Source of the DNA: a virus
Length of the DNA stretch: 64,000 nucleotides
Strand: one strand, 5' to 3'
Virus genome (UHGV): UHGV-0248979
A program made the position numbers and the translations under genes. Below the pieces are notes generated by a model. The model was given only the letters and a program-made list of their open reading frames with translations. It was not told the DNA's origin and searched no databases. This document shows, piece after piece, positions 15,136 through 58,598 of the stretch (positions are counted from its first letter, which is position 1; each line of letters opens with the position of its first letter).

Positions 15136-15147
15136 AAAAGTAAAGCT

Positions 15148-15173
15148 ACCCCTAGACCACACGGTCTAGGGGT
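15148..15173. terminator. bidirectional hairpin terminator (CCCCTAGACC...GGTCTAGGGG)
   Basis: 10-bp stem between convergent genes; A-run upstream, T-run downstream. Confidence 0.6.
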
Positions 15174-15180
15174 AAACTAT

Positions 15181-16080
15181 TTATTTCCCACGATAAAATC
15201 CAGAGATGTAGCTTGGCGCTATCCATCGCCATTCGCGCCAACGCATTTCTGACATTTTACCACACCATACACGCTTCCAATGAGCACGACGGATATGTGC
15301 TGCGCAATAAATCGCCAAACAAACCTCGTGTCCCTCCTTGCGTTGTTGTTCTATATCTTCCCATTGTACCGGACTTACGTCTAAAACGACCGCTTCACTA
15401 CGTGGGCGAATCTCTGTATCAGGAACATAACGAATGGTCCTCCCGCGAAATTCTTTCTTCTCACGTTCAGTTCGTTTAATTCGCGATGAAAGATATAGTC
15501 CGATATAGACGGCGTCGAGTAGTCGTTGATTCTCCTTAACCGAAGTAAGGAGCGGCTTTAACTCCACGAAATCATCATTACTTTTATCGATCGTGTAAAT
15601 CTCAAACTCCATGTATACCGACTCGTCATGTTCTTCGCATGACATCACAAAGAGAACTTCTTCACCTTCGTAAAGACGTCTTCCGATAAATAACGTGATT
15701 GGACATTCGTCGAGATTTACGGTAACCGAGAAAGTAAATGAAGGGATGGTTTCTATCCAGAAGTACGGGATATTTTTTAGTCTCTCAGTTTTTGCTAAGA
15801 GCGCCATCAGTTCTTCATCCGAGATGATTTCAACAGCAGCGTATTGCCATCCTAGTCCCAGGGACTGCTTAATCAGTCTGGGAATCTGTTCGGTAACGCC
15901 ATATTCACGATAGGTCGGATCTTTAACTGGCATAAACGTTACGGGTATTTGTCGTTTATGCTCGTTAATGAACCGAATAAAACGGCACTGATCTAATCCG
16001 TGAATTGTTTGGTGTGCTTTTTCTATCTGTTCGCTCATGCGTCTTAGCGCTTTCCCGTAAAGTCTATTATTCGTTGTCAT
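15181..16080 (-). CDS. hypothetical protein, tandem paralog A (299 aa), conserved C-terminal AAHIRRAHWKRVW motif
   Basis: Shares C-terminal motif and internal blocks with the 16106-17032 gene; start moved to ATG with SD AGGAGC. Confidence 0.55.
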   Translation of the reverse strand: MTTNNRLYGKALRRMSEQIEKAHQTIHGLDQCRFIRFINEHKRQIPVTFMPVKDPTYREYGVTEQIPRLIKQSLGLGWQYAAVEIISDEELMALLAKTERLKNIPYFWIETIPSFTFSVTVNLDECPITLFIGRRLYEGEEVLFVMSCEEHDESVYMEFEIYTIDKSNDDFVELKPLLTSVKENQRLLDAVYIGLYLSSRIKRTEREKKEFRGRTIRYVPDTEIRPRSEAVVLDVSPVQWEDIEQQRKEGHEVCLAIYCAAHIRRAHWKRVWCGKMSEMRWREWRWIAPSYISGFYRGK

Positions 16081-16105
16081 TTTAATGCTCCTAAACACTT
16101 TTAGC

Positions 16106-17032
16106 TTAATTGTGGGGTACGTAGCCACGGACAAATGTAGGTGGAATCCAACAAAGTTTTCTTTTTCTTTCCCCATCTCTTGGACCGACCCAATATCTGC
16201 GCCAGTGCGCGCGACGAATATGTGCGGCCTTGGCGTGTTTGATACCTTCCATGGTTTTCAAGTCGGTGTTAAATCCCTTTAGATATTTCACTTGTTCTGG
16301 TGTGATGTCTATTTTAACGTCACGTTCACGAGGTTTGATTTCGTGACTTATGCTACCATTCTTTTTGATTTCTTTGAACTTAATGTCATTGAAAGACCCT
16401 CTGAGATTGGGCGGGATTAGCGTACAGAGAAATATCAACGATATGGCGGTTTTGGCCAGTGATAACCATAACGTCTTCTCTTGTTCGGTCTGTACGCCAG
16501 TTGTATAATCGATTTCAACAAGCCCGTTTCCAACACTACATATCTCTAACGAGCAGGTGGCGATTGTGGTAACGCCTTCTGTTAACCCGTAATCAGTATT
16601 TGTAGCAATTATAATAAACCTTCTATTCCCATTTTTTCGATAACCGAGAAAGAAAGTCTCATCTTCTTTACCTACATCGATTGCTACAGTCCAAGTAGGT
16701 ATAAAGTCTAACCACTCTTCAGGGAATTTACTGGGCATCTCAGTCTCGAAAACAAGTTCTCTAAGTGCTCGATCGGATATTAAGGAAGCACCACCGTATA
16801 GCCATCCAATTGCCAATGTTTGAGCGTGAAGAGAACGGGGATCTTTGAGACCTAACTCAGCGTCGTAGGGTATAAAGGCATTAGTTAAATGCTTACGATT
16901 CTTTTTTATCCATTTCGAGACGGGATTTTCTTTTGTTTGATTTTCTTCCATGACATTTTCTAGATGCTGACTCCCCATTTGTCTAAGGCAGTCTTTAACA
17001 CCTTTTACTTTTTTACTTTTGTACAAATACAC
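16106..17032 (-). CDS. hypothetical protein, tandem paralog B (308 aa), conserved C-terminal AAHIRRAHWRRYW motif
   Basis: Paralogy with the 15181-16080 gene. Confidence 0.55.
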   Translation of the reverse strand: MYLYKSKKVKGVKDCLRQMGSQHLENVMEENQTKENPVSKWIKKNRKHLTNAFIPYDAELGLKDPRSLHAQTLAIGWLYGGASLISDRALRELVFETEMPSKFPEEWLDFIPTWTVAIDVGKEDETFFLGYRKNGNRRFIIIATNTDYGLTEGVTTIATCSLEICSVGNGLVEIDYTTGVQTEQEKTLWLSLAKTAISLIFLCTLIPPNLRGSFNDIKFKEIKKNGSISHEIKPRERDVKIDITPEQVKYLKGFNTDLKTMEGIKHAKAAHIRRAHWRRYWVGPRDGERKRKLCWIPPTFVRGYVPHN

Positions 17033-17065: not shown

Positions 17066-17085
17066 TACCCTAGCCGAAGCTAGGG
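17066..17085 (-). terminator. hairpin ACCCTAGC-CGAA-GCTAGGGT
   Basis: 8-bp stem with tetraloop, A-rich upstream on plus strand. Confidence 0.45.
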
Positions 17086-17091
17086 TGTCTA

Positions 17092-17580
17092 TTAGTCGAT
17101 TTTGACGTAGTCGGGATAGTTAGCTTTTAACCACTCCCATAGCTGTAAGGAAAGTAGGTTTTCACTACGTTCGATGATTTCCATGATATCTGCCACGTAA
17201 GACCCACCAATCCAAATTCGTCTATAAAAATTTTCCCATTCCGGTTCTGTATAGGGAACAATCGGTGTAGGAAATTTCTCTAAATTGTACGCATCGGTAA
17301 CTTTTCTTAAGAACTGATACCGGCAATCGCGAAGGCGTTGTCGAACGTCTGTTTCTGTTATGTGGTCGTTTGATGGATTGAAGAAATCAAACAGGTTAGC
17401 TGTGTATGCTATTATGCTCTGGCAACTGAAGTAGGCCGCAGCGTAATCTGCCATCCAAGGAGTGGAAGCAACCATTGGGGCCAACTTTTCTTCTATTTCT
17501 TTTCTTACACGCGCACCGTGATTGAGAAATTCATGCACAATATCACTTTTACTAAGATTGATAATATCATTTACGTTCAT
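17092..17580 (-). CDS. hypothetical protein (162 aa)
   Basis: ORF. Confidence 0.5.
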   Translation of the reverse strand: MNVNDIINLSKSDIVHEFLNHGARVRKEIEEKLAPMVASTPWMADYAAAYFSCQSIIAYTANLFDFFNPSNDHITETDVRQRLRDCRYQFLRKVTDAYNLEKFPTPIVPYTEPEWENFYRRIWIGGSYVADIMEIIERSENLLSLQLWEWLKANYPDYVKID

Positions 17581-17581
17581 T

Positions 17582-18106
17582 TTACTGTCCTAAAATTGGG
17601 GTGAGTCTGTCTGCGGTGTTTAACAATGCTTTTGTAATTTCGTGGTTGGTCTCTTTTAGGATGGCGCAGCAGAGAGTGGTATAAACCTCGATTGCTAAAC
17701 CGATTTCTTGTTCAGTCAGACACGGTTCGGTGCCGCCAATCCCGTAACGCTGCGCTGCATACTCAATTTCAAGTTTCAAACGTTTTCGTAGTGCCTCGTC
17801 ATCAGTTAAACGCGCGCACGCCCGATCGAAACGTCTATTGTAAGCCTCGATCTTGTGGACAATTTCGCGTCGCAGTTGGTCGACCTTTACGTTATCATCA
17901 AGAGTGATGGTGACGTTGTCAACTAAACAGTAATGCACCGCGTGTCGTAAGTTGTGTAATGTGGCGGCAGTAACGACCCGCTCCTGATGGTCGCTAAAGC
18001 CGTGGGCACCACAGAGCTTGCGTGCAACCGCGCCAGAGATTTTCTCCTCTAACGCTATCGGCGTGGCAATGGTTGTTTTCTTACGAAGCTGAATTAAAAT
18101 ATCCAC
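17582..18106 (-). CDS. hypothetical protein (174 aa)
   Basis: ORF. Confidence 0.5.
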   Translation of the reverse strand: MDILIQLRKKTTIATPIALEEKISGAVARKLCGAHGFSDHQERVVTAATLHNLRHAVHYCLVDNVTITLDDNVKVDQLRREIVHKIEAYNRRFDRACARLTDDEALRKRLKLEIEYAAQRYGIGGTEPCLTEQEIGLAIEVYTTLCCAILKETNHEITKALLNTADRLTPILGQ

Positions 18107-18108
18107 GG

Positions 18109-18651
18109 TTATACTCCTTTAGGTTGTCCGTATTTTGACGATAGGTAGATGAGTTCAGCATGGCAGATTTTCTCAACTAACCCGAGTGTCTCAAGGAAAA
18201 TATCCCGGATACGGGACATCGTTTCGTTGGTAAGAATATCGCTCCAACATGTTGTGTCTATTATATCCGTCGTTGAAGATTGGCGCTGCAATATTGCGAC
18301 ATACACTTCGTCGAGGCTATCTGGTGCATTATTCTGTAAGTAATGGGCGGCATGTAGAAAGGCTTTCTCAAGAATCAGCTGAATATCCGTATCGGGATCA
18401 GTTACCCGTACTAAATGCGGGTATGTCATAGCCGAACTGATTTTTATCACTAACTGCTCAACGAGGTTATTCACCATCGCTTCTGAATCCAGGATAGTAA
18501 TATCAGCTCCATCGTGTTCTTCAGAAATCTTATTCTCATGCACTGCTATCGCATCGTGTAATTCAAACGCAACGCGACTTCGCATCTCACTTAACACTTT
18601 GTTTAATTTGTCCCGTGACTCGCTGAGTGAGAAATCGATAAGTATTTTCAT
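18109..18651 (-). CDS. hypothetical protein (180 aa)
   Basis: ORF. Confidence 0.5.
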   Translation of the reverse strand: MKILIDFSLSESRDKLNKVLSEMRSRVAFELHDAIAVHENKISEEHDGADITILDSEAMVNNLVEQLVIKISSAMTYPHLVRVTDPDTDIQLILEKAFLHAAHYLQNNAPDSLDEVYVAILQRQSSTTDIIDTTCWSDILTNETMSRIRDIFLETLGLVEKICHAELIYLSSKYGQPKGV

Positions 18652-19394
18652 TATACGTACTCCTGATAAATTGGCCGACCCCGATCTTCTCGAATCTGGC
18701 AGTATGTTACAACAATACCGTTAGGGATTTGTGCGCCGCTGTCTTCAAGGTAAATAACGCCCGTAGCTTCACAGAGATAAAACGACCACAATCGTGAGAT
18801 ACCAAGCCGTGCGTTCTCGTAGTGACTGAATGGCCAGAAACCACAGTGAATCTCATCATAGTCTCCCCGTTCTATCCCGTAAGCAATCATTTCTTTTTCC
18901 CACAACGTACATTCAGCGTCGTAAGTCGAAAACCAGAAACCAACGAGATTCTTTGTCCGCTTAACGTTCATTAAGTCGTTATAAATGGGAAAGAGTGCTT
19001 TATTGAAATTTTCTAACATCTCTGGAGAGAATAGAAAATTCATGTAGTATTCTAGCCATTGATAAACGGCTTCCCAGACATCTTCAGAAGAGAAATGTTC
19101 GAATACGGCGTCATCGCAATCGTAGTTATCGAAGATCCCTGAGAGATCTATTTCGACGACGCCGCGAAGGTCAAAGTTTCTGTTGGTATTGACAGCGTCA
19201 ATAACCTCAGCGATGAGACGAGTAAAGACGATTGTGCAGGCGGTTTGTGCGGTATAAAAGAATTCTCCTTGTACGGTTGACCACTTCGGGTCCTTCAAAT
19301 GTTCATTGAAGTATTGTGGCCAAATTTTATAAAAGATTCCCTCGAACAACGAGGGATTGATACGTTGTAATTGAGGGACATAAACTTTTAGCAT
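18651..19394 (-). CDS. hypothetical protein (247 aa)
   Basis: ORF. Confidence 0.5.
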   Translation of the reverse strand: MLKVYVPQLQRINPSLFEGIFYKIWPQYFNEHLKDPKWSTVQGEFFYTAQTACTIVFTRLIAEVIDAVNTNRNFDLRGVVEIDLSGIFDNYDCDDAVFEHFSSEDVWEAVYQWLEYYMNFLFSPEMLENFNKALFPIYNDLMNVKRTKNLVGFWFSTYDAECTLWEKEMIAYGIERGDYDEIHCGFWPFSHYENARLGISRLWSFYLCEATGVIYLEDSGAQIPNGIVVTYCQIREDRGRPIYQEYV

Positions 19395-19430
19395 TCTAAT
19401 AACTCCAATGGTGTTACACCTGGATAATAT

Positions 19431-20099
19431 CTATCTAAGAATATTTTTAATGAAAAAAGGATCGGCTGTAAACTCCTTCACTTGTGAGTCATAACCCGAA
19501 TGTATTTGATCGCTACTGAGCAAATACTGGTCTAGGTCGTGCGGAAGAATCCAAGAATCACCTTGCTTAAAAATACCATAATCTGCTGTTCCTGCGGAAA
19601 AAATGATTTCCTCTGGAAACGAATAGACACGGCGTAAGGCAAGATCGGATGGCTTTAACACGATTAATCGAACGGGATGTTGACTGACTGCCTCTTTAAT
19701 AAACTGTTCACGATTAAACCAAATTATTTTTTCGGGGTAAGTTTCGAATTCAGCCCATGCCCGCGTGATAACTAATTTGGAAATCTTTCTCAATTCTTCA
19801 GAACGCTCTGCGTAGCCGATGCACTCCTTGCGTACTTCATGATTTTCTATCGATGTTGTGAATTTTTGGAATAGGTGTTGTTGGAAAAAGCCGTTCTCCG
19901 GGATATCACAACCCGCGTTGTATAGTGCAATGATCTCCCACAACAACGAAAGAGAAAACACAAATGCTAACTTTTCCACAACTTCCCAATCTTCGGAGTA
20001 AGGGGCTTTAAAGCCCCAATACTGCCGTGCGTTATACATAAAGTGAGTTTGTAAAAACCGAGGGGCTTTTGACAAGACCTCACTATAAACGATCAGCAT
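19431..20099 (-). CDS. hypothetical protein (222 aa)
   Basis: ORF. Confidence 0.5.
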   Translation of the reverse strand: MLIVYSEVLSKAPRFLQTHFMYNARQYWGFKAPYSEDWEVVEKLAFVFSLSLLWEIIALYNAGCDIPENGFFQQHLFQKFTTSIENHEVRKECIGYAERSEELRKISKLVITRAWAEFETYPEKIIWFNREQFIKEAVSQHPVRLIVLKPSDLALRRVYSFPEEIIFSAGTADYGIFKQGDSWILPHDLDQYLLSSDQIHSGYDSQVKEFTADPFFIKNILR

Positions 20100-44759: not shown

Positions 44760-47700
44760 ATGGCTGTCGTCTTAGACCCACACTTCAAAAAACCGGGGAA
44801 TAAAATAACCGGTGAAGCGGTCGCCGTCATTGGTACGAAATACCGAATGTTGGTACCTGCCCACGCCCCTTTTTTCACCACATCCCTGGTGGTCAAGAGC
44901 GGCGGCAAAATACTGACCTTAGGCGACGATTACGTTATTACACACCCGTACGAGACTGGTATGTTGCGCACAGCCTATCTCATTCACGGGATGATTTGGA
45001 TTGTTAATGACAAATACAAATCGAACTTTACTGTAGATTACCATGCCGTTGGTTGTGGTGAAGCAACCCAAGAGCAGATTACCGCAGAGCGCGAGCTTAA
45101 TAAAGGTAAATACCCCTCCGCGTGTCAGTGGGACACCGTCATCGGAGACGTTTACTTTCCACCGGTCGATATCCAGTTCGATTGGGAGAATTGGAAAGGT
45201 GAACTGGAGCTAATGCAGGCCATTGCTGGGGTAGGCGATTCGTTAGGGGAAGTCGTGAGTCGTCTTAACCCAATCGCACGCAATACACTGGATTTGGAAT
45301 ATCGTGCTAATAGCAAGGTTATCACTTCCGAGCAGTATGCTGCGTACGATAATAAAGGCGGTTTCACCTACAACACAGCTCGCCACCGTTATAGCCTGAG
45401 TTATAAAGCGACAACCTTTAACAACTATTCCCTGTCGGTGAAACACAGAATTCCTGCTATTCTGCCGGACATGACAAAGTTGAATCCGAACGAGCAGATC
45501 GATTGGATGCTCTGTTATGCCAACGGTGGTGCAAGCATTCTACGGTTGCAGCTAAAACAGCGCAAAATCTCACTGGTCTTAACTGTCGCTATTGGAAGCG
45601 GTTCATCAAACTACGATTATACTTTAATCAACGGTTTAACTGACGATGAGTTAAAAAACGATATCGATTTTAGTGTAACCCGACAACCCGGAAACGGCGT
45701 TTACGTAATCGTAGTAAAAACAAATAAACAGACCATGGATTATACGTTCAACGTCGATACGCCACCTGATGAGTTCTCGGCAGGGTATTCGAAAACGGAT
45801 GTAGCCAAATGGTTGAAGTCTAAAACGAACATTAACCTGAACTGGTATGCGGCTGAAAACGATAATGTTCAAATTCGTTCTTTACCCGGTGCGCCGGAGC
45901 CTGACGTTGATAACGATGTTTACCAGTTAATAGTTAAGTATCATCAGTTGGTTGAGCAGCTGTATCGTAATGCGCCTGCGCACGAACACGTTACACGTAA
46001 GGACAACCCACACACAGATACGTGGGGTCCGATCCGTGCGTTAGAGTTGAACGGTATTGCGTCGGATGCAGCATTAGCTTACGGAAAAACGAAGCCGCAG
46101 TTAACGGATTATGTTAATGCTAAGTATCCAACACAAGCGACGCTGACAGCACAAAAGAAACTATTGCGCACGTCAGCTACGAAAACGGCTAACGGAACTA
46201 TTGGAACGCTGCCCGGTTTTACTTCGTTCACGACGGAAGTTGACCCGGTGTCAATGTCGAAATACGTGAGTCCTCGTTTTAGCGAAAGCTACGTTAGTAA
46301 TGGTCACAGGTATCACGGTGCGCTTCGTTACACAGGAACGAAGAGTGGATTCGCCACTTCTTTTAATGCGGTACCTGCTAACCTGCAAGATATTGACTTT
46401 ATTGTTACCGGACGTAAAACAGCGTCTGGTAATGAAGCTGTCGGTACGGTTAGCCTACGTTTCTATCAGAAACCTGGTACTAACTCTGGAAAATTTATCC
46501 AGCTTACAGGTGAAATTTCTGCGGGTAAAGTCGGCGTTAAGTTGGAACTGAACGGTTTTTCGAATCCCACACCGGAAGTTCAGTATCTTTCCCAAGCTCC
46601 TAATCCAGCAATACCGGATGGGGATTTTACGCTGCGTTTTCAACTGAAACGCACAGGGAACGTGTTTGATGTCGTTATTACCATAAACGGCAAGACATAC
46701 AGTGCACGTGTTAACTTCACTAACATGGACGCTGCACTAGAAGCATTGGAGAATAGCCACCACTTTAAATCATTGATCAGTAATGTTGCTGACAATGTCA
46801 CTATTAGCTCGGGGAATAAAGGTAACACGGTTACCATTAAGAAAGCGCCCGACGTCGTTGACGGGACCCGTTTAGGTGCCCAGTTTGTCGTTGACCCGAA
46901 ATCCATTAAGTTTATTGGACAAGGTTCAACCGAGGTTAATGCGGGGAATAACCCTGTAACGTTTCAAGCAGGTACTAACCAACTTATATTGTATCCTGAT
47001 GATCGTGGGTTACAGTGGCGTGGTAAGAAACTCTTAGACCCCACTACCGTGGCTCCGTATCTGCCAGGCAATACCGCGGGCGGTACGGGATTATTCTACG
47101 GTACATCTACAACCACGGTAGAACTTACCGGTAGCGGGATAAAAGCATCGCCGTTCGTAGCGACTTTTATTCTCCCTACCGCGACTGATACAACAGCCCT
47201 GGCAGCTTGGCAGTTGACCGATGAGTTTGGTACCGCTGAAAACCTTGCAGCAACGCCAGCACTGATTGAAAAACTCGATGCGGAGTTCACCGGTAAATTA
47301 GTTGCGGTTAAATCGTACATTAACGACATGCAACTTACCAGCTCGGTCACTATCGACAAAATTACCTTTGGTTTAGGTAACGTTGCGAATACACCCGATG
47401 TCAATTTACCGATTTCTACAGCACAACGTGCGGAGTTAGATAAATACTCGCCTAAAGTTCACCAACACCCGTTTACCGCTTTTGGTACTGGGAACGCAAC
47501 CACAGCGAAACGTGGTCTGATTAAATTTGGTCTGGATGTGGATGATGCGACTTTAGCACTCGATGGGAGTGTGGTAATGGCGCAGACTTCCCAGATTGAA
47601 AAATTGGAAAATGCTGTCGGTGGCGTTGACTCGGGTGCTCGCGTTGACATTATTCGTTTCGGCAAGTCTGGTGACGACTTAATTAACGTTACGGTTAAAG

Positions 47701-49082
47701 ACAAAATTCTGGCTATGCTCCCCGCTTCAACGTACTTTGTTGGTGGTGAGACGTATGACGTACCGTTAATGTCGGTTAACGTCACTGAACGTTTCCCGAA
47801 TCCGAAAACGTTGATCTACGCAGGAATTTTTGTTGATATTGTTGACAACAAAGCGAAGTATGTTATCCACGACAGCTACAATCAGGCTGAAACGGATACC
47901 ATGACGCGCGTGGGAAGACTCGTTGTCAATGAGCTTTCCGAAGTGGACGTAGTGGAATTGCGTAACGTGACACGATTAGGCGAATTCCACGAGCTGAAAG
48001 ACCACATCGCTAATGACAACGCACACATTCAACGTTCTGCTTCGCGTGCAGTATTGGGGTTAAGTGATTTAACAGTAGGTGCACCTTGCTGGGCTTCTGG
48101 ACTCCAGGCAGTAGTGCGTGGTGAAGCAGATTGGCGTTATGTTGTTCGTGGACAGTATAAAGCCTTAGACGGGGTGAAATACGACCAGATCGCATCAAAG
48201 TGGATTTTCGATGCGAAAGGGGTAAGTGACAACGTTCACGGGTTTATTCACAACTTATTCCCGACTTTCAAAAACGCAGGAATGCGGGTAAGTTGGGAAA
48301 CAGAAAGCAACGCAAAAACCGGAACAGTGTTAGAAACTGTTTTAGGTTGTTGGAAGAACACCGACGGCGAGTTTATGCGGTTGTCATTACTTATCACTCG
48401 CGGTTATCGTTTAACTGACAGTAACGGTGAATATTGTTACGCAGGGTTCGGTTTGAACTTCGGTAGCGGGAAATCGGTAGTGGTAGGTTTCACACCAACG
48501 AAGCGTGTTACGCCTGCACCGTGGAGTTCATTACGACCTGACGTAACGTTTACCCACACCCGTGGTGCAAACAACGCAATAACGTTTAATGCATCGCTGA
48601 CTTTAGCTGGCACTGTGTATACTATCGTGGTGTTTTTATCCGCGACAGATAAATACGTAAGCTGTACGGCGGCAGGGGGAACTACGCAGAAAATCCCATT
48701 AGCCGACCGTTTAACCGGGTTCAATATCGAACCTATCGTTAATGATCCGTATACCCCTATTTACTACGGTTTAGGGGGACTTTATGAGGATGAGGTTCGT
48801 GCCAACATCCGCTCTACAGCAGACAGCGCAACTGCGAACAAAGTCTACGGTACGTTGTTGGACTATGTTAGCAACTATTCCTCATTAAATCGAGTACGCG
48901 TCATGGAATTGTCCGGTGTCAGCTCAGACCCCGAAACGCTTAATGCGTTAGTGGCAACTGAATTTAATAACAACCTGGCAGATTACGCTGCGTTACCGAT
49001 ACCTCCTTATCTTAACAAGGAGCGCGTAATGTCGTTTATCGACACCGACAATAAAGTGCAGGCGGTAATCATTCGCGATTAA
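44760..49082 (+). CDS. tail fiber-like / receptor-binding protein 1 (1440 aa)
   Basis: Giant Thr/Gly/Ser/Asn/Val-rich ORF, SD AGGAG; N-terminal domain shared with the next three genes. Confidence 0.55.
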   Translation: MAVVLDPHFKKPGNKITGEAVAVIGTKYRMLVPAHAPFFTTSLVVKSGGKILTLGDDYVITHPYETGMLRTAYLIHGMIWIVNDKYKSNFTVDYHAVGCGEATQEQITAERELNKGKYPSACQWDTVIGDVYFPPVDIQFDWENWKGELELMQAIAGVGDSLGEVVSRLNPIARNTLDLEYRANSKVITSEQYAAYDNKGGFTYNTARHRYSLSYKATTFNNYSLSVKHRIPAILPDMTKLNPNEQIDWMLCYANGGASILRLQLKQRKISLVLTVAIGSGSSNYDYTLINGLTDDELKNDIDFSVTRQPGNGVYVIVVKTNKQTMDYTFNVDTPPDEFSAGYSKTDVAKWLKSKTNINLNWYAAENDNVQIRSLPGAPEPDVDNDVYQLIVKYHQLVEQLYRNAPAHEHVTRKDNPHTDTWGPIRALELNGIASDAALAYGKTKPQLTDYVNAKYPTQATLTAQKKLLRTSATKTANGTIGTLPGFTSFTTEVDPVSMSKYVSPRFSESYVSNGHRYHGALRYTGTKSGFATSFNAVPANLQDIDFIVTGRKTASGNEAVGTVSLRFYQKPGTNSGKFIQLTGEISAGKVGVKLELNGFSNPTPEVQYLSQAPNPAIPDGDFTLRFQLKRTGNVFDVVITINGKTYSARVNFTNMDAALEALENSHHFKSLISNVADNVTISSGNKGNTVTIKKAPDVVDGTRLGAQFVVDPKSIKFIGQGSTEVNAGNNPVTFQAGTNQLILYPDDRGLQWRGKKLLDPTTVAPYLPGNTAGGTGLFYGTSTTTVELTGSGIKASPFVATFILPTATDTTALAAWQLTDEFGTAENLAATPALIEKLDAEFTGKLVAVKSYINDMQLTSSVTIDKITFGLGNVANTPDVNLPISTAQRAELDKYSPKVHQHPFTAFGTGNATTAKRGLIKFGLDVDDATLALDGSVVMAQTSQIEKLENAVGGVDSGARVDIIRFGKSGDDLINVTVKDKILAMLPASTYFVGGETYDVPLMSVNVTERFPNPKTLIYAGIFVDIVDNKAKYVIHDSYNQAETDTMTRVGRLVVNELSEVDVVELRNVTRLGEFHELKDHIANDNAHIQRSASRAVLGLSDLTVGAPCWASGLQAVVRGEADWRYVVRGQYKALDGVKYDQIASKWIFDAKGVSDNVHGFIHNLFPTFKNAGMRVSWETESNAKTGTVLETVLGCWKNTDGEFMRLSLLITRGYRLTDSNGEYCYAGFGLNFGSGKSVVVGFTPTKRVTPAPWSSLRPDVTFTHTRGANNAITFNASLTLAGTVYTIVVFLSATDKYVSCTAAGGTTQKIPLADRLTGFNIEPIVNDPYTPIYYGLGGLYEDEVRANIRSTADSATANKVYGTLLDYVSNYSSLNRVRVMELSGVSSDPETLNALVATEFNNNLADYAALPIPPYLNKERVMSFIDTDNKVQAVIIRD

Positions 49083-49095
49083 GGAGAATTTTTTG

Positions 49096-52000
49096 ATGAA
49101 AGCGTATCCTTACGATCCTCGGGGGACGAAAACCGAGAATCACTTCTTAGAGGAGCGTATCATCGGGTCAGAAAACAACAACGATCGGGTGGTGATTTTA
49201 GACCATCGCCCGTTCTTTGAAGATTTAGTCGTCAGACAACCAGGTTCAACCACCCCACTGAGTCGTGGGGTGGACTACGAACTGCAATATCAGCTGACGG
49301 AACTGGATGACTCGGTAGCAGCCAACGTGTATTGTGGGGTACACCTTATCAACCCTTCCATCAAAGGCATCGTAACCTTTGAAGGACAAATGCTCGGCGG
49401 TACGTTCTACGACCCGTTTGTTGATATTCTCGATGAGCTGGTGAAATATTTGAATAACCCAGTCAGCGCTGACTGGTTGTTATTAGAAGGCAGACCGTCG
49501 TTATACCCGGCTACGCCTGCGGCAACGTCTTGGGCGGATTTGCTAAACAAAAAATATTTAGCGTCGGCAGTCCACGATGTTGAATTGAAAACCGATGACG
49601 CTAACCAGTTAATTAAAGATAAATTAGCCGAAGTTAAAGCGTTAGTCGCCGCGCTGGGTAAAGAAATCGAGACATTTAACTACCCGGCACACATCGCGGA
49701 AACCAACCCGCACCAAACCACTTCTGCACAGATTAACGCACATCCTGTTAACTTGAAAACACCCGACACCTTTATGGCGTACGGGTTAAAGTTGAAAGCA
49801 TTGACGGATGAGCTGAAAGCGTTTCGTTTACCACAGTCAGTTATTGACACGTATATCTCCCACTGGATTTCTTCAGAAGTACGGGGTGTGTTTAACTGTA
49901 CGGTGTCAGGAAACCGTGCACAGTTCCGCTCAAAAAACGGTGAGTCAGAAATCATTTTTGCGAATGATGGCTTTACGTTAAAATCCAACGGTTCTGTAGT
50001 GTTAGCGGTAGGGCATCTGGAAGGAACGGGTGCAGGACGTTACATTAACTGGCGTGCTGGTAAAAACATCCTACGTATCGAGTCAACAGGCGATGCTTTA
50101 GGGATGAACAAACTCACCCTAAACGGTAACCCGTTACTGACCACCACAGCATTGATGGAATACCAACAAGATCCTGATGCTGGCGGGAGCGGTGGCGGTG
50201 ACCCCGACGACTCAAAGGTGTACATCGAAGGCCGTAATGGGATTAGCTTCACCGGTAAAGGCTCTCGGACCGATCCTATCGTGGGTACTATCGACCCGAC
50301 GAAAGCGACAACCACTGAAAAAGGTGTTGTTAAGCTTAAAACTGGTAAAGGTACAGAAATCGTTGGGGTTGCAGCAACTCCGGCTTCGTTAGCGCCATAT
50401 GCGACCGACCTATCGGGGTATGTGGCTAAAACGACCATGATTAACGGTAAGCCAATGAATGACGGCTCCAGGACAATCACGAAAGCTGACCTGGGGTTAG
50501 GGCAAGCGGATAATACCGCAGATCTTGACAAACCGTTGTCAACCAAGTTAACTGAGGCGGTTAGCGGTCTAGCAGATGTGGGCCATCATCACGATTGGTC
50601 GGAGTTAGGTATTTATAAAGCTTCTCAATCTGTTTACGGTATTGGTCGTTATGCAACTAACCAGAACGGTTTGGTTGAAAACCGTGCAGTGGTACCGAAC
50701 ATCCTAAAAGAGCTTTCGGCACGTTTAAGTGTGGTCGCTGCGGCAATTGCAAATGCGAAAGAAGGAACAGTCACGGATTTCGCTGCTGTAAAAGGCGCAG
50801 ACTGGCGATTTAATAGCCAGGGTACGGCAATCTCCGTTCAGGATTTGAAATATTTCTATTTGCTGGACGGCACGAAAGGTGACAGTACCGTTACCGGTGC
50901 GATTGACCTGCAAACCACTCCGATGTTTAACTGGTTCTCACCGAACAACCAACTTGAGCTGACTTGGCCTACGGGTAAGGTGAGTAAAGGTACCGGGATT
51001 AGTTGGGATGGAATTGTTGATCCCCCAACAATGGGGTTTCAGTCAGTTCCGGTAGGTAAAAGCGCCACCCAGATGGGCGTTCAGTCCGTTGTATCGGTAC
51101 TGGCTAAAACGCGCGTCAAAGCTCGTCAGAAAAGGCTGTTTGTTTATGCCGCTGGCGGTGGGACAATAACCGTTTATGTAAATGGTGTTGTAGGCGCTAC
51201 TGGTGCGTCGCCATTGTTAATGAACTATGGAACGTCTCCAGATGTTGAAAACTACACAATTGCTGTTAAAGCAGAGTGTAGTGACACGGCTAAATCTGCA
51301 GCGGTACAGTTCGAAGTTTACGATGGTGACTACCCCGTTTATTTCAGTGGTCCTGAAACGCGTGTAGAGCTTCTCCAGGAGTTTGTCACAACGCATGTAG
51401 GTATTCGTCATTATTTGTACGTTAACATGCTCACAGGCTCTCTGTATTCGCGTGCTGAACCAGTTCAAGGATTTGAGGTCGATCCAGAACGCGGATATAT
51501 CGGTTATGTTGATATCGTTCCTGGTCAGTCTTACGCGAATAAAACCGTGGGATTTGAAACCACGTTTGATTTCGGGAAAAGTGCGGAAGTTAGCGAGCAT
51601 AATAGTATTCGTAAGGCACACGGTCTCAACGCTGCGGACTGGTCACTGACGGATAACCCACGGTTGCCGTTATTAAACCGTGCTATTGCCGAACCAAGAG
51701 CGTGTATCTTTAGGAAACCGTTAGCAACCGCTACAGGGGATGTTTTCCATCTTGTCAGTCGTGGTCTTTATACTTACGCACACAACCAAAACGTGAAGTC
51801 GAGTCTTCAATACGTTGTGATACCTGAAGGTGCTACGCCGTATTGTTGGTTTACACCATTTAACCCGAAAGAAAACAACGCACCGACATTCGAAGGCTCG
51901 TTTGCGTTCGATGTTGACGATGTTGGTGGAACGCAAGCCCTTGCTGCTGCGCCGGATTTGGTTCTATGCACGTCAACGCAAGGTAGCAGCGTTAAACGTC

Positions 52001-53277
52001 GCTATCTGCGCATTGACCTAACTACCAAAACCTGTAAGTTGGGGATTGGTTCCCGTTCAGATTCTGCTGTTACGGATATTCCGTTAGTGATGGAGGAGTC
52101 TGGGGAAACGGCAGTGGCCGCAACGTTTAAGGATGTGTTGTTCAACGGTGAGGAAACCAACGCGGCGACGCTCGACTTGATAGGTTGGGGTGCCAGCCGA
52201 GATAAAATTTCTGCAAACCATGCACCTCGTGGCATGATTCGCTATCGTTACAACGTAAACAGTCGGGTATTACGTTTAGCACTGACGTTCTCACAGTTCG
52301 GAACGACAACAGTTAAACATCGACAGCTGGAGATTCAATTCCCGTTCGATTTAGTGGATTATTTCACTGGCGACGGTGTGGGATTGTCGTTTAAAGAACT
52401 GTCTGCGAAATGCCGTGTAACGATTAGTCACGCGCTGATTGATCCGGCTACGAGTAACGTCGACATTGATAAGTACCATTACTTACGTTCGTTGTTCGAA
52501 TCGTATCTGGATTCGTCCGTTGGGTATTTGGCTGATACCAAAGACGTTGATTTTAGTCAGACTGTGATTGACCCCGCGACTTATGAGATTAGTCAGAAAT
52601 ACCGCGTTACAGAAAGCATCGCGCTGCCAACCGGCCAGGGAAGTGTTGCTGTTTCACATGACGGTCAGTTGCCTGCGCAGTTCTTTGACCGTAAGCTGTC
52701 TCGTGGTGCCTTGATGGCCAAGAAAGGTGAACTCAACGCTTCCTGGAATAATGAGTGGAGCACGACTAAAGCTGCTGCGAGTCGTTATCGCCATAAACTC
52801 ATTCTACGCTTTGCACAAGGTGCTGATAAACAGCAGTATCGCGTTGCAAAAGTGGCCGGGACGGTGAAGTCTAACTGGCCGGGTAAAGTGATTATCGGTG
52901 ATGCCGGGAAGGACCCGTATGTATCGGCTATTGATAGCGTATCTTTTGCGCTTTCGACCGCCTCTGATACAGGTAAAGCGATTACTCTTACGCCAAAGGA
53001 CTTACGTGTAGGTCAGGACATTTATATTGTCTTAGAACCGCCCGGCAATAATCCGGAAGGTTATGAACTTAACTTTACCTGTTCGTTAGATGTCACTGAC
53101 GAGAAAAGTGTCCGTCAAGATCAACTCAATGCACAGAGTTTCGAACTCCGTAGCGGCGAAAGTCAGTTCTTAATGGAGAAACGCAACCCGTACCACATCA
53201 CGAGTAAAGCGTGGAAGTGGATTCTGGCTGTACTGAAACGAGAACTTAACGGGAAGCAGTTAGGGGATCGTACTTAG
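49096..53277 (+). CDS. tail fiber-like / receptor-binding protein 2 (1393 aa)
   Basis: SD AAGGAG overlapping upstream stop; shared N-terminal motif PFFEDLVV...GVDYEL; contains HHHDW. Confidence 0.55.
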   Translation: MKAYPYDPRGTKTENHFLEERIIGSENNNDRVVILDHRPFFEDLVVRQPGSTTPLSRGVDYELQYQLTELDDSVAANVYCGVHLINPSIKGIVTFEGQMLGGTFYDPFVDILDELVKYLNNPVSADWLLLEGRPSLYPATPAATSWADLLNKKYLASAVHDVELKTDDANQLIKDKLAEVKALVAALGKEIETFNYPAHIAETNPHQTTSAQINAHPVNLKTPDTFMAYGLKLKALTDELKAFRLPQSVIDTYISHWISSEVRGVFNCTVSGNRAQFRSKNGESEIIFANDGFTLKSNGSVVLAVGHLEGTGAGRYINWRAGKNILRIESTGDALGMNKLTLNGNPLLTTTALMEYQQDPDAGGSGGGDPDDSKVYIEGRNGISFTGKGSRTDPIVGTIDPTKATTTEKGVVKLKTGKGTEIVGVAATPASLAPYATDLSGYVAKTTMINGKPMNDGSRTITKADLGLGQADNTADLDKPLSTKLTEAVSGLADVGHHHDWSELGIYKASQSVYGIGRYATNQNGLVENRAVVPNILKELSARLSVVAAAIANAKEGTVTDFAAVKGADWRFNSQGTAISVQDLKYFYLLDGTKGDSTVTGAIDLQTTPMFNWFSPNNQLELTWPTGKVSKGTGISWDGIVDPPTMGFQSVPVGKSATQMGVQSVVSVLAKTRVKARQKRLFVYAAGGGTITVYVNGVVGATGASPLLMNYGTSPDVENYTIAVKAECSDTAKSAAVQFEVYDGDYPVYFSGPETRVELLQEFVTTHVGIRHYLYVNMLTGSLYSRAEPVQGFEVDPERGYIGYVDIVPGQSYANKTVGFETTFDFGKSAEVSEHNSIRKAHGLNAADWSLTDNPRLPLLNRAIAEPRACIFRKPLATATGDVFHLVSRGLYTYAHNQNVKSSLQYVVIPEGATPYCWFTPFNPKENNAPTFEGSFAFDVDDVGGTQALAAAPDLVLCTSTQGSSVKRRYLRIDLTTKTCKLGIGSRSDSAVTDIPLVMEESGETAVAATFKDVLFNGEETNAATLDLIGWGASRDKISANHAPRGMIRYRYNVNSRVLRLALTFSQFGTTTVKHRQLEIQFPFDLVDYFTGDGVGLSFKELSAKCRVTISHALIDPATSNVDIDKYHYLRSLFESYLDSSVGYLADTKDVDFSQTVIDPATYEISQKYRVTESIALPTGQGSVAVSHDGQLPAQFFDRKLSRGALMAKKGELNASWNNEWSTTKAAASRYRHKLILRFAQGADKQQYRVAKVAGTVKSNWPGKVIIGDAGKDPYVSAIDSVSFALSTASDTGKAITLTPKDLRVGQDIYIVLEPPGNNPEGYELNFTCSLDVTDEKSVRQDQLNAQSFELRSGESQFLMEKRNPYHITSKAWKWILAVLKRELNGKQLGDRT

Positions 53278-53315
53278 GACAGACTGCCTGCGGGCAGTTG
53301 TGTGTCCGTAGGTAA

Positions 53316-53339
53316 CCCCTCCCTGTAATGGGGAGGGGT
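53316..53339 (+). terminator. hairpin CCCCTCCC...GGGAGGGG followed by T-run
   Basis: 8-bp stem then TATCCATTTTATTT. Confidence 0.55.
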
Positions 53340-53371
53340 ATCCATTTTATTTAAAAGTAGGAGTCTTTACG

Positions 53372-56300
53372 ATGCCGAGAGAAGACGCGGCGCAGTTTAA
53401 CGGTACGCTAAGCACAACGACGTACCCTAACCGATTTAACGTGGTCATTCCGCCTGAAGGACCTTTTTATCGTATCGGATTAAAACTCACAGTAGCCGAC
53501 GATACCGCGCCTAACGGACGTCGTACTCTGATTGAGGGGTTGGACTACTATTTAGGCTATTACTTTAAAGAACTCGCAGAAGCTGAACAAGATCAGATTT
53601 ATGGCGGGTTTATGTTGCTTACTGCAACAGAAATCGAATATGAGATTTTAGGGGTAGCACGGCAGTATCGTGTACCGCAATCTGAAATCGGGAAGTTCTT
53701 AGTTCGTACTGACCTGAAAGACCCGCGTAACGTGGACTGGTCGGAGTTAATGGCGTACGCGCCGGTTATTCAACCAATCGACCCCCCTGCTAACTTAGAA
53801 GAAGCTATTCTGAGGGACGAGGTCGTTAAAGCGTTGAACGATATCCGTAAGAAAATCGTTCAGCGTTCAACAGAGTTAGATGCGGCCTTCACCGAAGTCA
53901 CTAACCTGATTTACGAGAACGGTAAAAAGATTTTCGATGAAGAACTATACCAACACCACCTTAATCCTAACGCTCACCAGTATACGACCAATGACGTTGG
54001 GGCCCTTCCGGTTTTAGGACGTGCTGTTGACGCTACAAAAGCGTTTGGGTTGACAATTGACCAACTGGCTACGCTGATGGGTTCGGCGGGCATTGAGCAA
54101 TCAGACGTTGAACAGCTAATGGGTGAAGCCCTCGGTACCGTTTACGGTCGTTGGGGCACCACGAACGGTAACGAACTAACGTTTAAAACACCGGGTGGAC
54201 ACATCATCAGCATCCGTGGTGATAAGTGGTTAATTACCTCCCCGCAACCGTTAGTGATTAAAGCAGACCAAGACAACAACGAATCCGGTTTGGCGGTTGA
54301 GTTTAGTGCGGGACTGAATACGCTTTGGGTACACTCTGGGTCAGAACAGGATGTATTAGCACCGGTCTATAACTCTGTGTATCTCGTTACACCAGAAATG
54401 GTGAACATGTACCTGACGTCTGTAACGTTACTTGAAGCGAATGCCTATTTCAAACCGTCAGACACCGTAAAACCGTACGGTACAGCGAAGCAGTCTAACC
54501 CACTAACGTTGAACGCGAATATTCCCACAGCAACCGAGTCGGTTTATGGGGTGTTTTCGATTACGAATATCGCAACCTCTGTAGCGCTAGGCACTGCTAT
54601 TTCCCAAAAGGCTGTGACCGAGTTAAAAAACCGGTTGGACTTGTACGTTGACGACGACTACACGGTTAACGGTAAAGGGTTTGTTAAGACAGGCGACAAC
54701 ATGGTGTTAACCTTAACGAAGGCCGATTTCGGTATCGATAAGATGAATAACACCGCACCCATCGCTAAACCGGTAACAAAAGCGTTAGCGAACGTGCTGA
54801 AAAATAAAAGTTTGAAGGTACACACGCACACTACCGCTGATTTGGATAATGTCCCGATTGGTAGCGCAACAGTGGACGGTATCTTACAGCTGTGGGATGC
54901 GATTGATACCACGAATGATAAAGCCGTCACATCACGCCAAGGGTGGCTGTTCGCAAAAGAGATTAAGAAGGTCTCTGATAAACTGAATACCCTCTTGCCC
55001 GCATGGACAACGGCCGGGAGCAAATATACCAACAATTCGATATTGCCGATCTTGTCGATGGGTAATTACGAAGGTTATGGTAAAAACATGGATGCGCTCC
55101 AGATGGTTATAGGGGTACAACAAGGTAAGCTTTATGCTTTAATTAGCTCTAAATCCGCCCTTCCGGGAACTGAGGGTATTTATTACGCTGTTGCTGGGTT
55201 AAAAAACGACAAAAGTCTCGGTGAAATTTACAAAACAACTTTCCGTTATAAGCCGAAAGGGTTAGAGACGAATTATCCGGGGGTGGAACTAAAAGAAATT
55301 ACCGTTACTGGTACCGAAGCATTTATAGCGAAGGGCAGCGACGATAATTATTATTTAGTTAAACTGAACGGTTCAATGGATTACACCAAACATACCGATG
55401 TCAGGTTGGTAACTTTCTCAGAATTTGTTTCAGAAACAACATGGGAATTTGTGCCGAATATGTTCATGGATCGTGTGGTCATAGCCGATAACGGCGTCTA
55501 TGTTTTGCGTACGATGCTAATGGCCGATCTGAAAAACAATAGTCTGGTGGACTACATTAAGGATACTCCGCAACCTATGTTCCGTGTTGGGTTATTGCGA
55601 CTTAATAAAACCGATCGGTTTGAACAGGTTGATTTAAGCTCTACACGAAAAATCGGTAAGTGTGCCGATTTGGTTGAACCTGGCGCGTTCGATGTAGATA
55701 ATCCGAATACGAAGCGTCTTGCCTACTTCACTGCGGAAGGCAAAGCGTTGTGGACAGTGAATTTACAATTAACTAGAGGGGTGTCAAGATGGATAACGCC
55801 CGTTGTTAAGGACGGTCACTTGTTAACCGTCGGCGTGTCTGGCGTTTGTCTTGGTTTTTCTTCAACGAAAGGTACCACATTCGGGCCATGGAATGGTGCT
55901 TATCGTCTCGACCTATTAACCGGGGAGGTTGGGTTAGAGACAACTAACATCTTCCCAATCAAAATCGATACTACAGGTTGCTACTTAAAAGACGGAACAA
56001 AAATAGAGCTGAAATGGAAATGGGCTACTCGAAGTTCTGGCTATATGGCCGACAATAGAATCTGTGTCGGTGATATGGTTTATTCTTGCTGCTGTTCGAC
56101 AGAAAAACAACTTGCACCATCTCTCCATTACCAGAAACTCCCAGAAGGAGTTAGTTATCTGGACTATGTTAAGTTGAGTGTGGGGTATGAGGGGCAATCT
56201 ACGTTTGAAAATCGGATAAATCCTGTGGTGGGTTCGGTGTGGAAACCGTCTATGACCTTCCCATTGTTCTTCCCAGGAACAAACAAAGTATGGCTTAAAC

Positions 56301-58558: not shown

Positions 58559-58598
58559 CGCCACGAGACAAGGACGTCTCGGATTAAGGAGAGTGGCC

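What the first reader, a model, noticed from the sequence alone, without database searches (positions are those of the whole stretch)
15181..17032. Tandem paralog pair with a strongly conserved basic C-terminal motif AAHIRRAHW(K/R)R(V/Y)W ... W-I-x-P-x-(Y/F)-x-x-G
The 299-aa and 308-aa proteins share internal blocks (LGLGWQYAAVEIISDEEL vs LAIGWLYGGASLISDRAL) and near-identical C-terminal segments (CAAHIRRAHWKRVWCG...WIAPSYISGFY vs AKAAHIRRAHWRRYWVG...WIPPTFVRGYV). The Arg/His/Trp-rich motif looks like a nucleic-acid-binding or catalytic element, but I do not recognise the family.
Basis: seen in the sequence. Interest (0 to 1): 0.5.

Follow-up and report, generated by a model that had tools for sequence, protein, structure and literature searches.

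The report
Tandem AcrVA2/FinQ-like genes, jumbo phage
The two neighbouring genes are diverged duplicates from the already described AcrVA2/FinQ protein family, whose one studied anti-CRISPR member silences a specific target gene by recognising the target's newly made protein and destroying its mRNA; the "mystery" His/Arg/Trp motif is that family's functionally essential C-terminal signature, so this is a new member of a known kind rather than a new family.

The parts
16106..17032 (-). Copy A: AcrVA2-like/FinQ-family protein, 308 aa, GTG start. It is the positional and phylogenetic ortholog of Asesino gp235.
15181..16080 (-). Copy B: the second, more divergent AcrVA2-like/FinQ-family protein, 299 aa, ATG start at 16080.
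   Evidence: ORF. RBS. phrog_6160 at E=1.5e-19. Leave-out family HMM at E=1.5e-20. A 98%-identical database protein (P0004) is tagged PF26125. dN/dS 0.03-0.17 among orthologs.
16130..16228 (-). Copy A C-terminal effector signature, residues 269-301 (AAHIRRAHWRRYWVGPRDGERKRKLCWIPPTFV). In the model these residues fall in the four C-terminal beta-strands.
   Evidence: H271/R273/H276 align with AcrVA2 H286/R288/H291. Column counts: H 129/130, R 130/130, H 130/130, G283 130/130, W295 130/130. Strands 271-273, 276-282, 290-296 and 299-301.
15205..15303 (-). Copy B C-terminal effector signature, residues 260-292 (AAHIRRAHWKRVWCGKMSEMRWREWRWIAPSYI).
   Evidence: Alignments. The same invariant residues are retained.
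16763..16816 (-). Copy A N-terminal-domain block LAIGWLYGGASLISDRAL (residues 73-90). W77 and D87 are the counterparts of AcrVA2 W79 and D89.
   Evidence: W is present in 119/130 and D in 88/130 family members, 10 residues apart as in AcrVA2. W79A and D89A reduce AcrVA2 activity.
15808..15861 (-). Copy B N-terminal-domain block LGLGWQYAAVEIISDEEL (residues 74-91), with W78 and D88.
17067..17086 (-). Terminator-like hairpin ACCCTAGC-TTCG-GCTAGGGT followed by a T-run. It lies between the upstream gene's stop (17092) and copy A's RBS and marks the upstream border of the pair.
   Evidence: The CCCTAG...CTAGGG hairpin type occurs only twice in the window and is conserved at this position in L003-L010.
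15146..15175 (.). 13-bp-stem bidirectional terminator-like hairpin between copy B's stop (15181) and the stop of the convergent 251-aa gene (15135). It marks the downstream border of the pair.

Best explanation
The two genes encode diverged paralogs of the AcrVA2-like/FinQ family (Pfam PF26125) in a jumbo phage related to the nucleus-forming Erwinia phage Asesino. They form a two-gene unit bracketed by terminator-like hairpins. By homology with AcrVA2, each protein most likely acts in the cytoplasm as a polypeptide-specific gene silencer. In that model the helical N-terminal domain and the central mixed alpha/beta domain recognise a short sequence in a particular nascent or newly made target protein. 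The conserved four-strand C-terminal element (H-I-R-R-A-H-W-x-x-x-W-x-G ... W-I-x-P) then triggers loss of the target's mRNA. The paralogs keep the effector element and the W/D block but are only 13-20% identical across the central region, so they probably act on two different targets. The targets are more likely host or competitor proteins than Cas12a. What is shown here: the paralogy, family membership by sequence and fold, conservation of the functionally tested residues, purifying selection on both copies, and the lineage-specific duplication. What is inferred: the silencing activity itself, cytoplasmic and co-translational action, the split into recognition and effector regions, and the existence of different targets. 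The confidence of 0.55 applies to the whole statement including the inferred mechanism; for family membership alone I would put it at about 0.97.
Against: Only one family member, AcrVA2, has a mechanistic study. It is a preprint, and how mRNA loss is triggered is unknown. Identity to AcrVA2 is only 12-16%, and a direct comparison of the small jumbo-clade profile with AcrVA2 aligns only the C-terminal 39 columns. The idea that the centre recognises and the C-terminus executes comes from AcrVA2 mutant phenotypes, not from anything measured here. Where AcrVA2 binds the Cas12a N-terminal peptide is itself only predicted. In the jumbo clade the family's usual HWH is HWR or HWK (114/130 members have H), which could alter activity. 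Copy B was not modelled. No target, localisation or expression data exist for these proteins or for Asesino gp235. The host of this phage is unknown, so Cas12a cannot be formally excluded.
Confidence: 0.55

Rival explanations
1. They are genuine type V-A anti-CRISPRs: one or both copies recognise the host's Cas12a nascent chain and destroy cas12a mRNA, exactly as AcrVA2 does.
For: Same family and fold, with the same essential residues. Huge-phage proteins clustering with AcrVA2 have been proposed as candidate Acrs.
Against: Identity to AcrVA2 is 12-16%, and the N-terminal and central regions are barely alignable directly. Marino et al. find the family mostly in bacteria without Cas12a. All ten cultured-phage homologs infect Erwinia, Salmonella or E. 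coli. From my own knowledge, not tested here, type V-A systems are not typical of those hosts. Nucleus-forming phages are already protected from DNA-targeting CRISPR. I did not identify an AcrVA1 partner or an acr-aca arrangement among the neighbours, which are hypothetical PHROG families and UvsX.
Confidence: 0.07
2. They are FinQ-like weapons against competing mobile elements: they silence genes of co-resident plasmids, prophages or superinfecting phages rather than host genes.
For: FinQ, a family member on conjugative IncI1 plasmids, inhibits F-plasmid transfer and lowers tra mRNA. The family is spread over many kinds of mobile elements. The pair evolves fast, and its alleles reassort between related phages, as expected for conflict genes.
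Against: There is no direct evidence. A virulent jumbo phage gains less obviously from blocking conjugation. This rival uses the same molecular mechanism as the best explanation and differs only in who the target is.
Confidence: 0.2
3. They regulate the phage's own genes, for example by shutting off early transcripts or working with the adjacent UvsX recombination module. The basic C-terminal motif would then act as a nucleic-acid-binding element.
For: Position next to the UvsX/RNase H/exonuclease module is conserved from this phage to Asesino. The motif is rich in Arg, His and Trp.
Confidence: 0.1
4. One copy, probably the more divergent B, is a decaying or non-functional duplicate.
For: B scores lower against the family profile (1.5e-20 against 6e-33) and falls outside the A plus Asesino-type group in the NJ tree.
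Against: B has an intact ORF with an RBS and retains every invariant family residue. It is conserved in all seven related loci long enough to hold it (L003, L004, L006-L010). Its dN/dS is 0.03-0.17.
Confidence: 0.03

Closest known systems
AcrVA2 (Moraxella bovoculi prophage; PDB 7CI1/7CI2; Pfam PF26125 AcrVA2-like)
   Different: Identity is 12-16%. The recognition regions are essentially unalignable pairwise. The setting is a virulent jumbo phage rather than a prophage with AcrVA1 next door. HWH is replaced by HWR or HWK. The gene is duplicated in tandem. Cas12a is unlikely to be the target.
FinQ (fertility inhibition protein of IncI1 and related conjugative plasmids)
   Same: Same family (E=4e-63 to the family HMM; linked to AcrVA2 by tblastn at 4e-11). 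It is a mobile-element gene reported to lower mRNA of a rival element's genes.
   Different: It is plasmid-borne, sits next to the trbA-C transfer genes and is single-copy. BLOSUM distance to A and B is 0.87-0.92. Its target (F tra) has no counterpart here.
Erwinia phage Asesino gp235 and phrog_6160 (uncharacterised jumbo-phage proteins)
   Same: Direct orthologs of copy A. Identity is 28.5% by tblastn (30% in the local re-run), the length is the same (308 aa) and the synteny is the same: five small genes (gp230-gp234), then gp235, then a convergent 251-aa gene, a 99-aa gene and UvsX. phrog_6160 hits at E=4e-38 and 1.5e-19.
   Different: Asesino and the other nine cultured relatives have a single copy, and Asesino lacks the CCCTAG hairpin brackets. 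None of these proteins has been studied.
Shewanella phage vB_SbaS_Y11 ORF43 (annotated as putative AcrVA2)
   Same: Another phage-encoded family member recognised by structural comparison with 7CI1, with the same NTD/MID/CTD description.
   Different: It comes from a 63 kb siphovirus, is single-copy, is much closer to AcrVA2, and its function is likewise untested.

Membership tests
AcrVA2-like / FinQ family (Pfam PF26125) | Full-length sequence-profile similarity to family members, including the structurally solved AcrVA2 | tested here: met
   Profile A2 against PDB: 7CI1 at E=1.2e-46 over residues 10-319. Leave-out HMM: A at 6e-33 over residues 38-305, B at 1.5e-20, AcrVA2 at 5e-46. The exhaustive search found 648 cluster representatives.
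AcrVA2-like / FinQ family (Pfam PF26125) | Conserved C-terminal H-x-R...H motif (AcrVA2 H286, R288, H291) within the pHiRRaHW-x-x-[YF]W-x-G...W[IL]-x-P signature | tested here: met
   A has H271, R273 and H276; B has H262, R264 and H267. Column counts are 129, 130 and 130 of 130.
AcrVA2-like / FinQ family (Pfam PF26125) | N-terminal-domain W and D (AcrVA2 W79, D89), 10 residues apart | tested here: met
   A has W77/D87 and B has W78/D88. W is present in 119/130 and D in 88/130.
AcrVA2-like / FinQ family (Pfam PF26125) | AcrVA2 three-domain fold (helical NTD, mixed MID, four-strand CTD) | tested here: met
AcrVA2-like / FinQ family (Pfam PF26125) | Direct hit to the Pfam model PF26125 above its gathering score | tested here: inconclusive
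   The local Pfam-A copy returns nothing even for proteins the database tags with PF26125, so the model is evidently not in that copy. Homologs 90% identical to A (P0001) and 98% identical to B (P0004) carry the precomputed PF26125 'AcrVA2-like' tag.
AcrVA2-like / FinQ family (Pfam PF26125) | Translation-dependent, polypeptide-specific down-regulation of a target mRNA | not testable with these tools
   This needs expression and RNA or protein measurements. It is known only for AcrVA2.
Type V-A anti-CRISPR (functional AcrVA2 ortholog) | Inhibits Cas12a by recognising the Cas12a N-terminal LSKT peptide | not testable with these tools
Type V-A anti-CRISPR (functional AcrVA2 ortholog) | Recognisable similarity to AcrVA2 in the target-binding N-terminal and central regions | tested here: not met
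   hhalign of the jumbo-clade profile against AcrVA2 aligns only the C-terminal 39 columns. Identity is 12-16% in the structural alignments.
Type V-A anti-CRISPR (functional AcrVA2 ortholog) | Acr-locus context (partner Acr such as AcrVA1, Aca regulator) | tested here: inconclusive
   The neighbours are uncharacterised PHROG families plus UvsX, RNase H and an exonuclease. No dedicated Acr or Aca scan was run.
FinQ-type fertility inhibition | Encoded on a conjugative plasmid and acts on a co-resident plasmid's transfer genes | tested here: not met
   The locus lies in a jumbo-phage genome syntenic with Asesino, whereas finQ lies beside trbA-C on IncI1 plasmids. The activity was not testable.
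Known ribonuclease or nucleic-acid-binding folds (e.g. HEPN, RelE/barnase-like) | Structural similarity of any domain to a solved nuclease or nucleic-acid-binding domain | tested here: not met

The most novel reading that the evidence does not exclude
A clade of nucleus-forming-type jumbo phages has duplicated its AcrVA2-like gene into a hairpin-bracketed two-gene cassette. The members keep one effector element but carry diverged, reassorting recognition regions. On this reading, nascent-chain-guided mRNA silencing is a general and evolvable host-takeover or counter-defence tool of chimalliviruses, aimed at cytoplasmic, non-Cas12a targets such as RNA-targeting or abortive-infection defences that the phage nucleus cannot exclude.
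Probability: 0.3. Interest if true: 0.6.

Novelty: new member of a known kind. Interest (0 to 1): 0.3.

Why it matters
AcrVA2 is so far the only reported bacterial-system example of a protein that destroys a specific mRNA after reading the protein being made from it. Its many homologs occur where Cas12a is absent, and their targets are unknown. Nucleus-forming jumbo phages do not need protection from DNA-cutting CRISPR, so a conserved family member there should have a different target, and a pair of diverged copies should have two. Asesino gp235 is a single-copy ortholog in a cultured, microscopy-ready phage. This locus therefore offers a concrete place to ask what else the family silences and what the invariant H-x-R...H...W element does. 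It does not reveal a new family or mechanism. Its immediate practical value is a better annotation for phrog_6160 and the "hypothetical proteins" of Asesino/SPN3US-type phages.

Tried and rejected
- The local Pfam-A scan of the window proteins, their close homologs and Asesino gp235 gave no family even at E<=10. The copy evidently lacks PF26125.
- The NCBIfam scan gave nothing for the window proteins or for FinQ.
- A full-text search for 'PF26125' found no papers.
- Megablast of the locus against cultured phages found nothing. Only protein-level relatives exist.
- The first AlphaFold run, with a 7-sequence alignment, was unusable (pLDDT 48). It was replaced by the 130-sequence run.
- The third homologous-protein search, using the broad alignment, returned only 5 proteins and added nothing.
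- The afdb50 fold library was unavailable, so BFVD was used instead.
- The genome-contig scan with copy A found no close relative, so there is no host clue.
- The weak profile hit to dynein light chain (E=0.44) and the Pfam AAA_19 hit (E=0.29) were dismissed as noise.
- I considered whether the 331-aa extended ORF is the real copy B. I rejected it because of the RBS at 16092-16088, the 71-nt overlap with copy A, and orthologs that start at the equivalent Met.

Full report
**1. Observation**

The window carries two adjacent minus-strand ORFs at the stated coordinates.
- Copy A runs 17032->16106. It has a GTG start, encodes 308 aa and is preceded by AGGAG 8 nt upstream.
- Copy B's longest ORF is 331 aa from 16176, but that start overlaps copy A by 71 nt.
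- The ATG at 16080 has AGGAG 7 nt upstream.
- The spacer between the genes is 25 nt.

The two proteins are significantly similar: BLASTP E=3e-20, 23% identity over 281 columns. The quoted blocks are present verbatim. The core pattern H.R[RK].HW occurs only in these two proteins in the six-frame translation of the window.

**2. Family identification**

Local Pfam and NCBIfam scans found nothing. PHROGs places both proteins in phrog_6160, which has no known function. Several independent lines then identify the family.
- **First lead.** A small profile of the two paralogs and five close database homologs (A1) gave a weak PDB hit to the anti-CRISPR AcrVA2 (7CI1, E=0.033). The hit is confined to the C-terminal motif: HTKRPHIRRGHWHGYWQG...RVRWQPAVFV against HAKAAHIRRAHWRRYWVG...LCWIPPTFV.
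- **Family size.** An exhaustive profile search of 1.84 billion cluster representatives found 648 relatives at E<=0.001. Most are 300-380 aa, and nearly all of those listed carry the same C-terminal signature.
- **Broad profile.** A 130-sequence alignment of these (A2) hits AcrVA2 at E=1.2e-46 over residues 10-319 of 323.
- **Leave-out control.** An HMM built from the 117 members outside the jumbo-phage clade scores copy A at 6e-33 (residues 38-305), copy B at 1.5e-20 and AcrVA2 at 5e-46.
- **Database label.** The database tags close homologs of both copies with PF26125, which one source names 'AcrVA2-like'.
- **FinQ.** AcrVA2 finds annotated finQ genes on conjugative IncI1 plasmids by tblastn (E=4e-11 at 89% coverage). 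FinQ scores E=4e-63 against the family HMM.
- **Fold.** With the deep alignment, AlphaFold gives a confident model of copy A (pLDDT 86.4, pTM 0.82).

The model's layout is helices, then a mixed alpha/beta centre, then four terminal beta-strands. That agrees with the published NTD/MID/CTD description of AcrVA2.

**3. What the motif is**

In the 130-sequence alignment R273, H276, G283 and W295 (copy A numbering) are invariant. W77, P104, P112, H271, W277, W281 and P298 are at least 90% conserved.

Through the alignments, H271, R273 and H276 correspond to AcrVA2 H286, R288 and H291. W77 and D87 correspond to W79 and D89, with the same 10-residue spacing.

Marino et al. (bioRxiv 10.1101/2022.11.29.518452) report the following.
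- H286A, R288A and H291A diminish AcrVA2 activity and restore Cas12a protein and mRNA, while binding to Cas12a is retained.
- W79A and D89A cause a moderate loss of function.
- AcrVA2 recognises the N-terminal polypeptide of Cas12a, not its nucleotide sequence, and causes translation-dependent loss of cas12a mRNA.
- How the mRNA is destroyed is unknown.
- Homologs, including FinQ and 'megaphage' proteins, mostly occur where Cas12a is absent.

A 2026 review confirms that the degradation machinery is still unknown. The C-terminal one behaves as an effector element, but its chemistry is unresolved. No known nuclease or nucleic-acid-binding fold matches any part of the model.

**4. Genomic setting**

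The locus is syntenic with Erwinia phage Asesino gp225-gp245. The shared order is exonuclease, RNase H, several small genes, the AcrVA2-like gene, a convergent 251-aa gene, a 99-aa gene and UvsX. The window also encodes the giant virion proteins typical of these phages. Asesino is an experimentally shown nucleus-forming chimallivirus. I infer, but did not show, that the window's phage is one too.

All ten cultured relatives, infecting Erwinia, Salmonella and E. coli, have one copy, and both paralogs hit the same place in each. Of the fetched loci that scored against the family HMM, only the window and its own clade of ~220-225 kb contigs carry two copies (L003, L004, L006-L010). L005 belongs to that clade but is too short to hold a second copy.

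In an NJ tree the jumbo-phage proteins form one clade (100% bootstrap). Copy A groups with the single-copy Asesino-type orthologs (75%) and copy B falls outside them. Copy A is therefore the ortholog and copy B the extra, more divergent copy. The tree cannot separate an old duplication followed by loss from a recent duplication followed by acceleration.

The pair is bracketed by two terminator-like hairpins of one type, CCCTAG...CTAGGG. This type occurs nowhere else in the 64 kb window (0.03 expected). It is conserved at the same two positions in every clade member and is absent from Asesino.

**5. Evolutionary behaviour**

Both copies are under purifying selection, with dN/dS of 0.03-0.27, so neither is a pseudogene.

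They diverge much faster than their neighbours. A and B are 30% and 25% identical to Asesino, against 81% for UvsX and 76% for the 251-aa gene.

Copy B exists as two allele types about 63% identical, with saturated synonymous sites. These assort independently of copy A. L007 and L008 have a copy A that is 90-91% identical to the window's. Their copy B is only 63% identical to the window's but 98-99% identical to that of L003 and L010.

Between the paralogs, the C-terminal block (43% identity) and the W/D block (37%) are kept, while the central ~150 residues are 13-20% identical. This pattern is what one expects of conflict genes that share an effector and have divergent specificity. It is circumstantial.

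**6. Most likely mechanism**

By homology, each protein is a polypeptide-specific silencer. The N-terminal and central domains would bind a short sequence in a specific nascent or newly made protein, and the conserved C-terminal four-strand element would trigger loss of that protein's mRNA. The two copies probably have different targets.

Cas12a is an unlikely target for three reasons.
- The family's distribution mostly does not follow Cas12a.
- Divergence from AcrVA2 is extreme outside the motif.
- A phage nucleus already excludes DNA-targeting CRISPR.

What is shown: family membership, retained functional residues, selection and the duplication history. What is inferred: the activity, its location, the division of labour between domains, and the targets. 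My confidence is about 0.97 for family membership and 0.55 for the full mechanistic statement.

The rivals, with my estimates, are as follows.
- A true anti-Cas12a role (0.07).
- FinQ-like action against competing mobile elements, which uses the same mechanism on a different victim (0.2).
- Self-regulation or a nucleic-acid-binding role linked to the UvsX module (0.1).
- A decaying copy B (0.03).

**7. Comparison with the known, and novelty**

These are new members of a known family. The family has a Pfam entry, a crystal structure and a partly understood mechanism. Its presence in huge phages has been noted in passing.

What is particular here is the conserved placement in Asesino/SPN3US-type jumbo phages, the lineage-specific tandem duplication with allele reassortment, the hairpin-bracketed cassette, and a clade-specific HWH to HW(R/K) change.

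Neither the Asesino paper nor the jumbo-phage review I searched mentions gp235 or AcrVA2. The immediate gain is a better annotation for phrog_6160. The longer-term gain is a tractable system for finding non-Cas12a targets of this family.

**8. Verdict**

- Observation: confirmed.
The motif is functionally important, and the family is in fact known.
- Novelty: new member of a known kind.
- Interest: 0.3.

Noticed in passing
window 15146-15175 and 17067-17086: Two terminator-like hairpins share the stem CCCTAG...CTAGGG. This hairpin type occurs only at these two sites in the 64 kb window (0.03 expected by chance), exactly bracketing the AcrVA2-like pair. The same bracketing is conserved in L003-L010 and absent from Asesino. 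It could simply mark a transcription unit, or it could mark the borders of an exchangeable cassette.
   Followed up: partly
window 15181-16080 compared with L003, L006-L010: Copy B comes in two allele types about 63% identical, with saturated dS: a 299-aa type in the window, L006 and L009, and a 294-aa type in L003, L007, L008 and L010. These assort independently of copy A, which is 90-91% identical between the window and L007/L008. This implies recombination between related phages at this locus.
   Followed up: partly
window 17092-20099: The small genes upstream of the pair (162, 174, 180, 247 and 222 aa) form a hypervariable, mosaic block with 44-98% identity among otherwise close relatives. 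For example, the 162-aa gene is 45% identical in L009 although the adjacent copy A is 98% identical. The downstream side (251-aa gene, 99-aa gene, UvsX) is 90-100% identical. The 162-aa and 174-aa proteins have no PHROG match.
   Followed up: partly
window copy A residue 278, copy B residue 269: The jumbo-phage clade has HWR or HWK where 114 of 130 family members, including AcrVA2, have HWH. This is a clade-specific change directly after the essential His, and its consequence is unknown.
   Followed up: no
window 44760-59798: Four consecutive large plus-strand genes (1440, 1394, 1728 and 435 aa) are mutually related virion structural proteins. They share phrog_2163, phrog_7557, phrog_8078 and phrog_7449 segments, so this is a paralogous family of giant virion proteins.
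   Followed up: no
BFVD hit A0A223LH45 (Erwinia phage vB_EamM_RisingSun), plus Yoloswag and Dickeya phage JA13: Structural homologs of copy A (Foldseek E=4e-13 to 5e-12) exist in other jumbo phages that tblastn at 1e-5 did not reach. The RisingSun protein is annotated 'putative mycothiosynthase', which is probably a mis-annotation of an AcrVA2-like protein.
   Followed up: no
L072-L081 (genome contigs): Proteins carrying the exact AHIRRAHW string occur in Nitrospirota, Nocardia, Vibrio, Bryobacteraceae, Myxococcaceae, Variovorax and Burkholderia genomes. This shows how widely the effector motif is conserved across phyla.
   Followed up: no
window 16081-16176: Copy B's reading frame stays open upstream to an ATG at 16176 (331 aa), overlapping the end of copy A by 71 nt. 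RBS position and ortholog starts favour 16080, but an N-terminally extended isoform cannot be excluded.
   Followed up: partly
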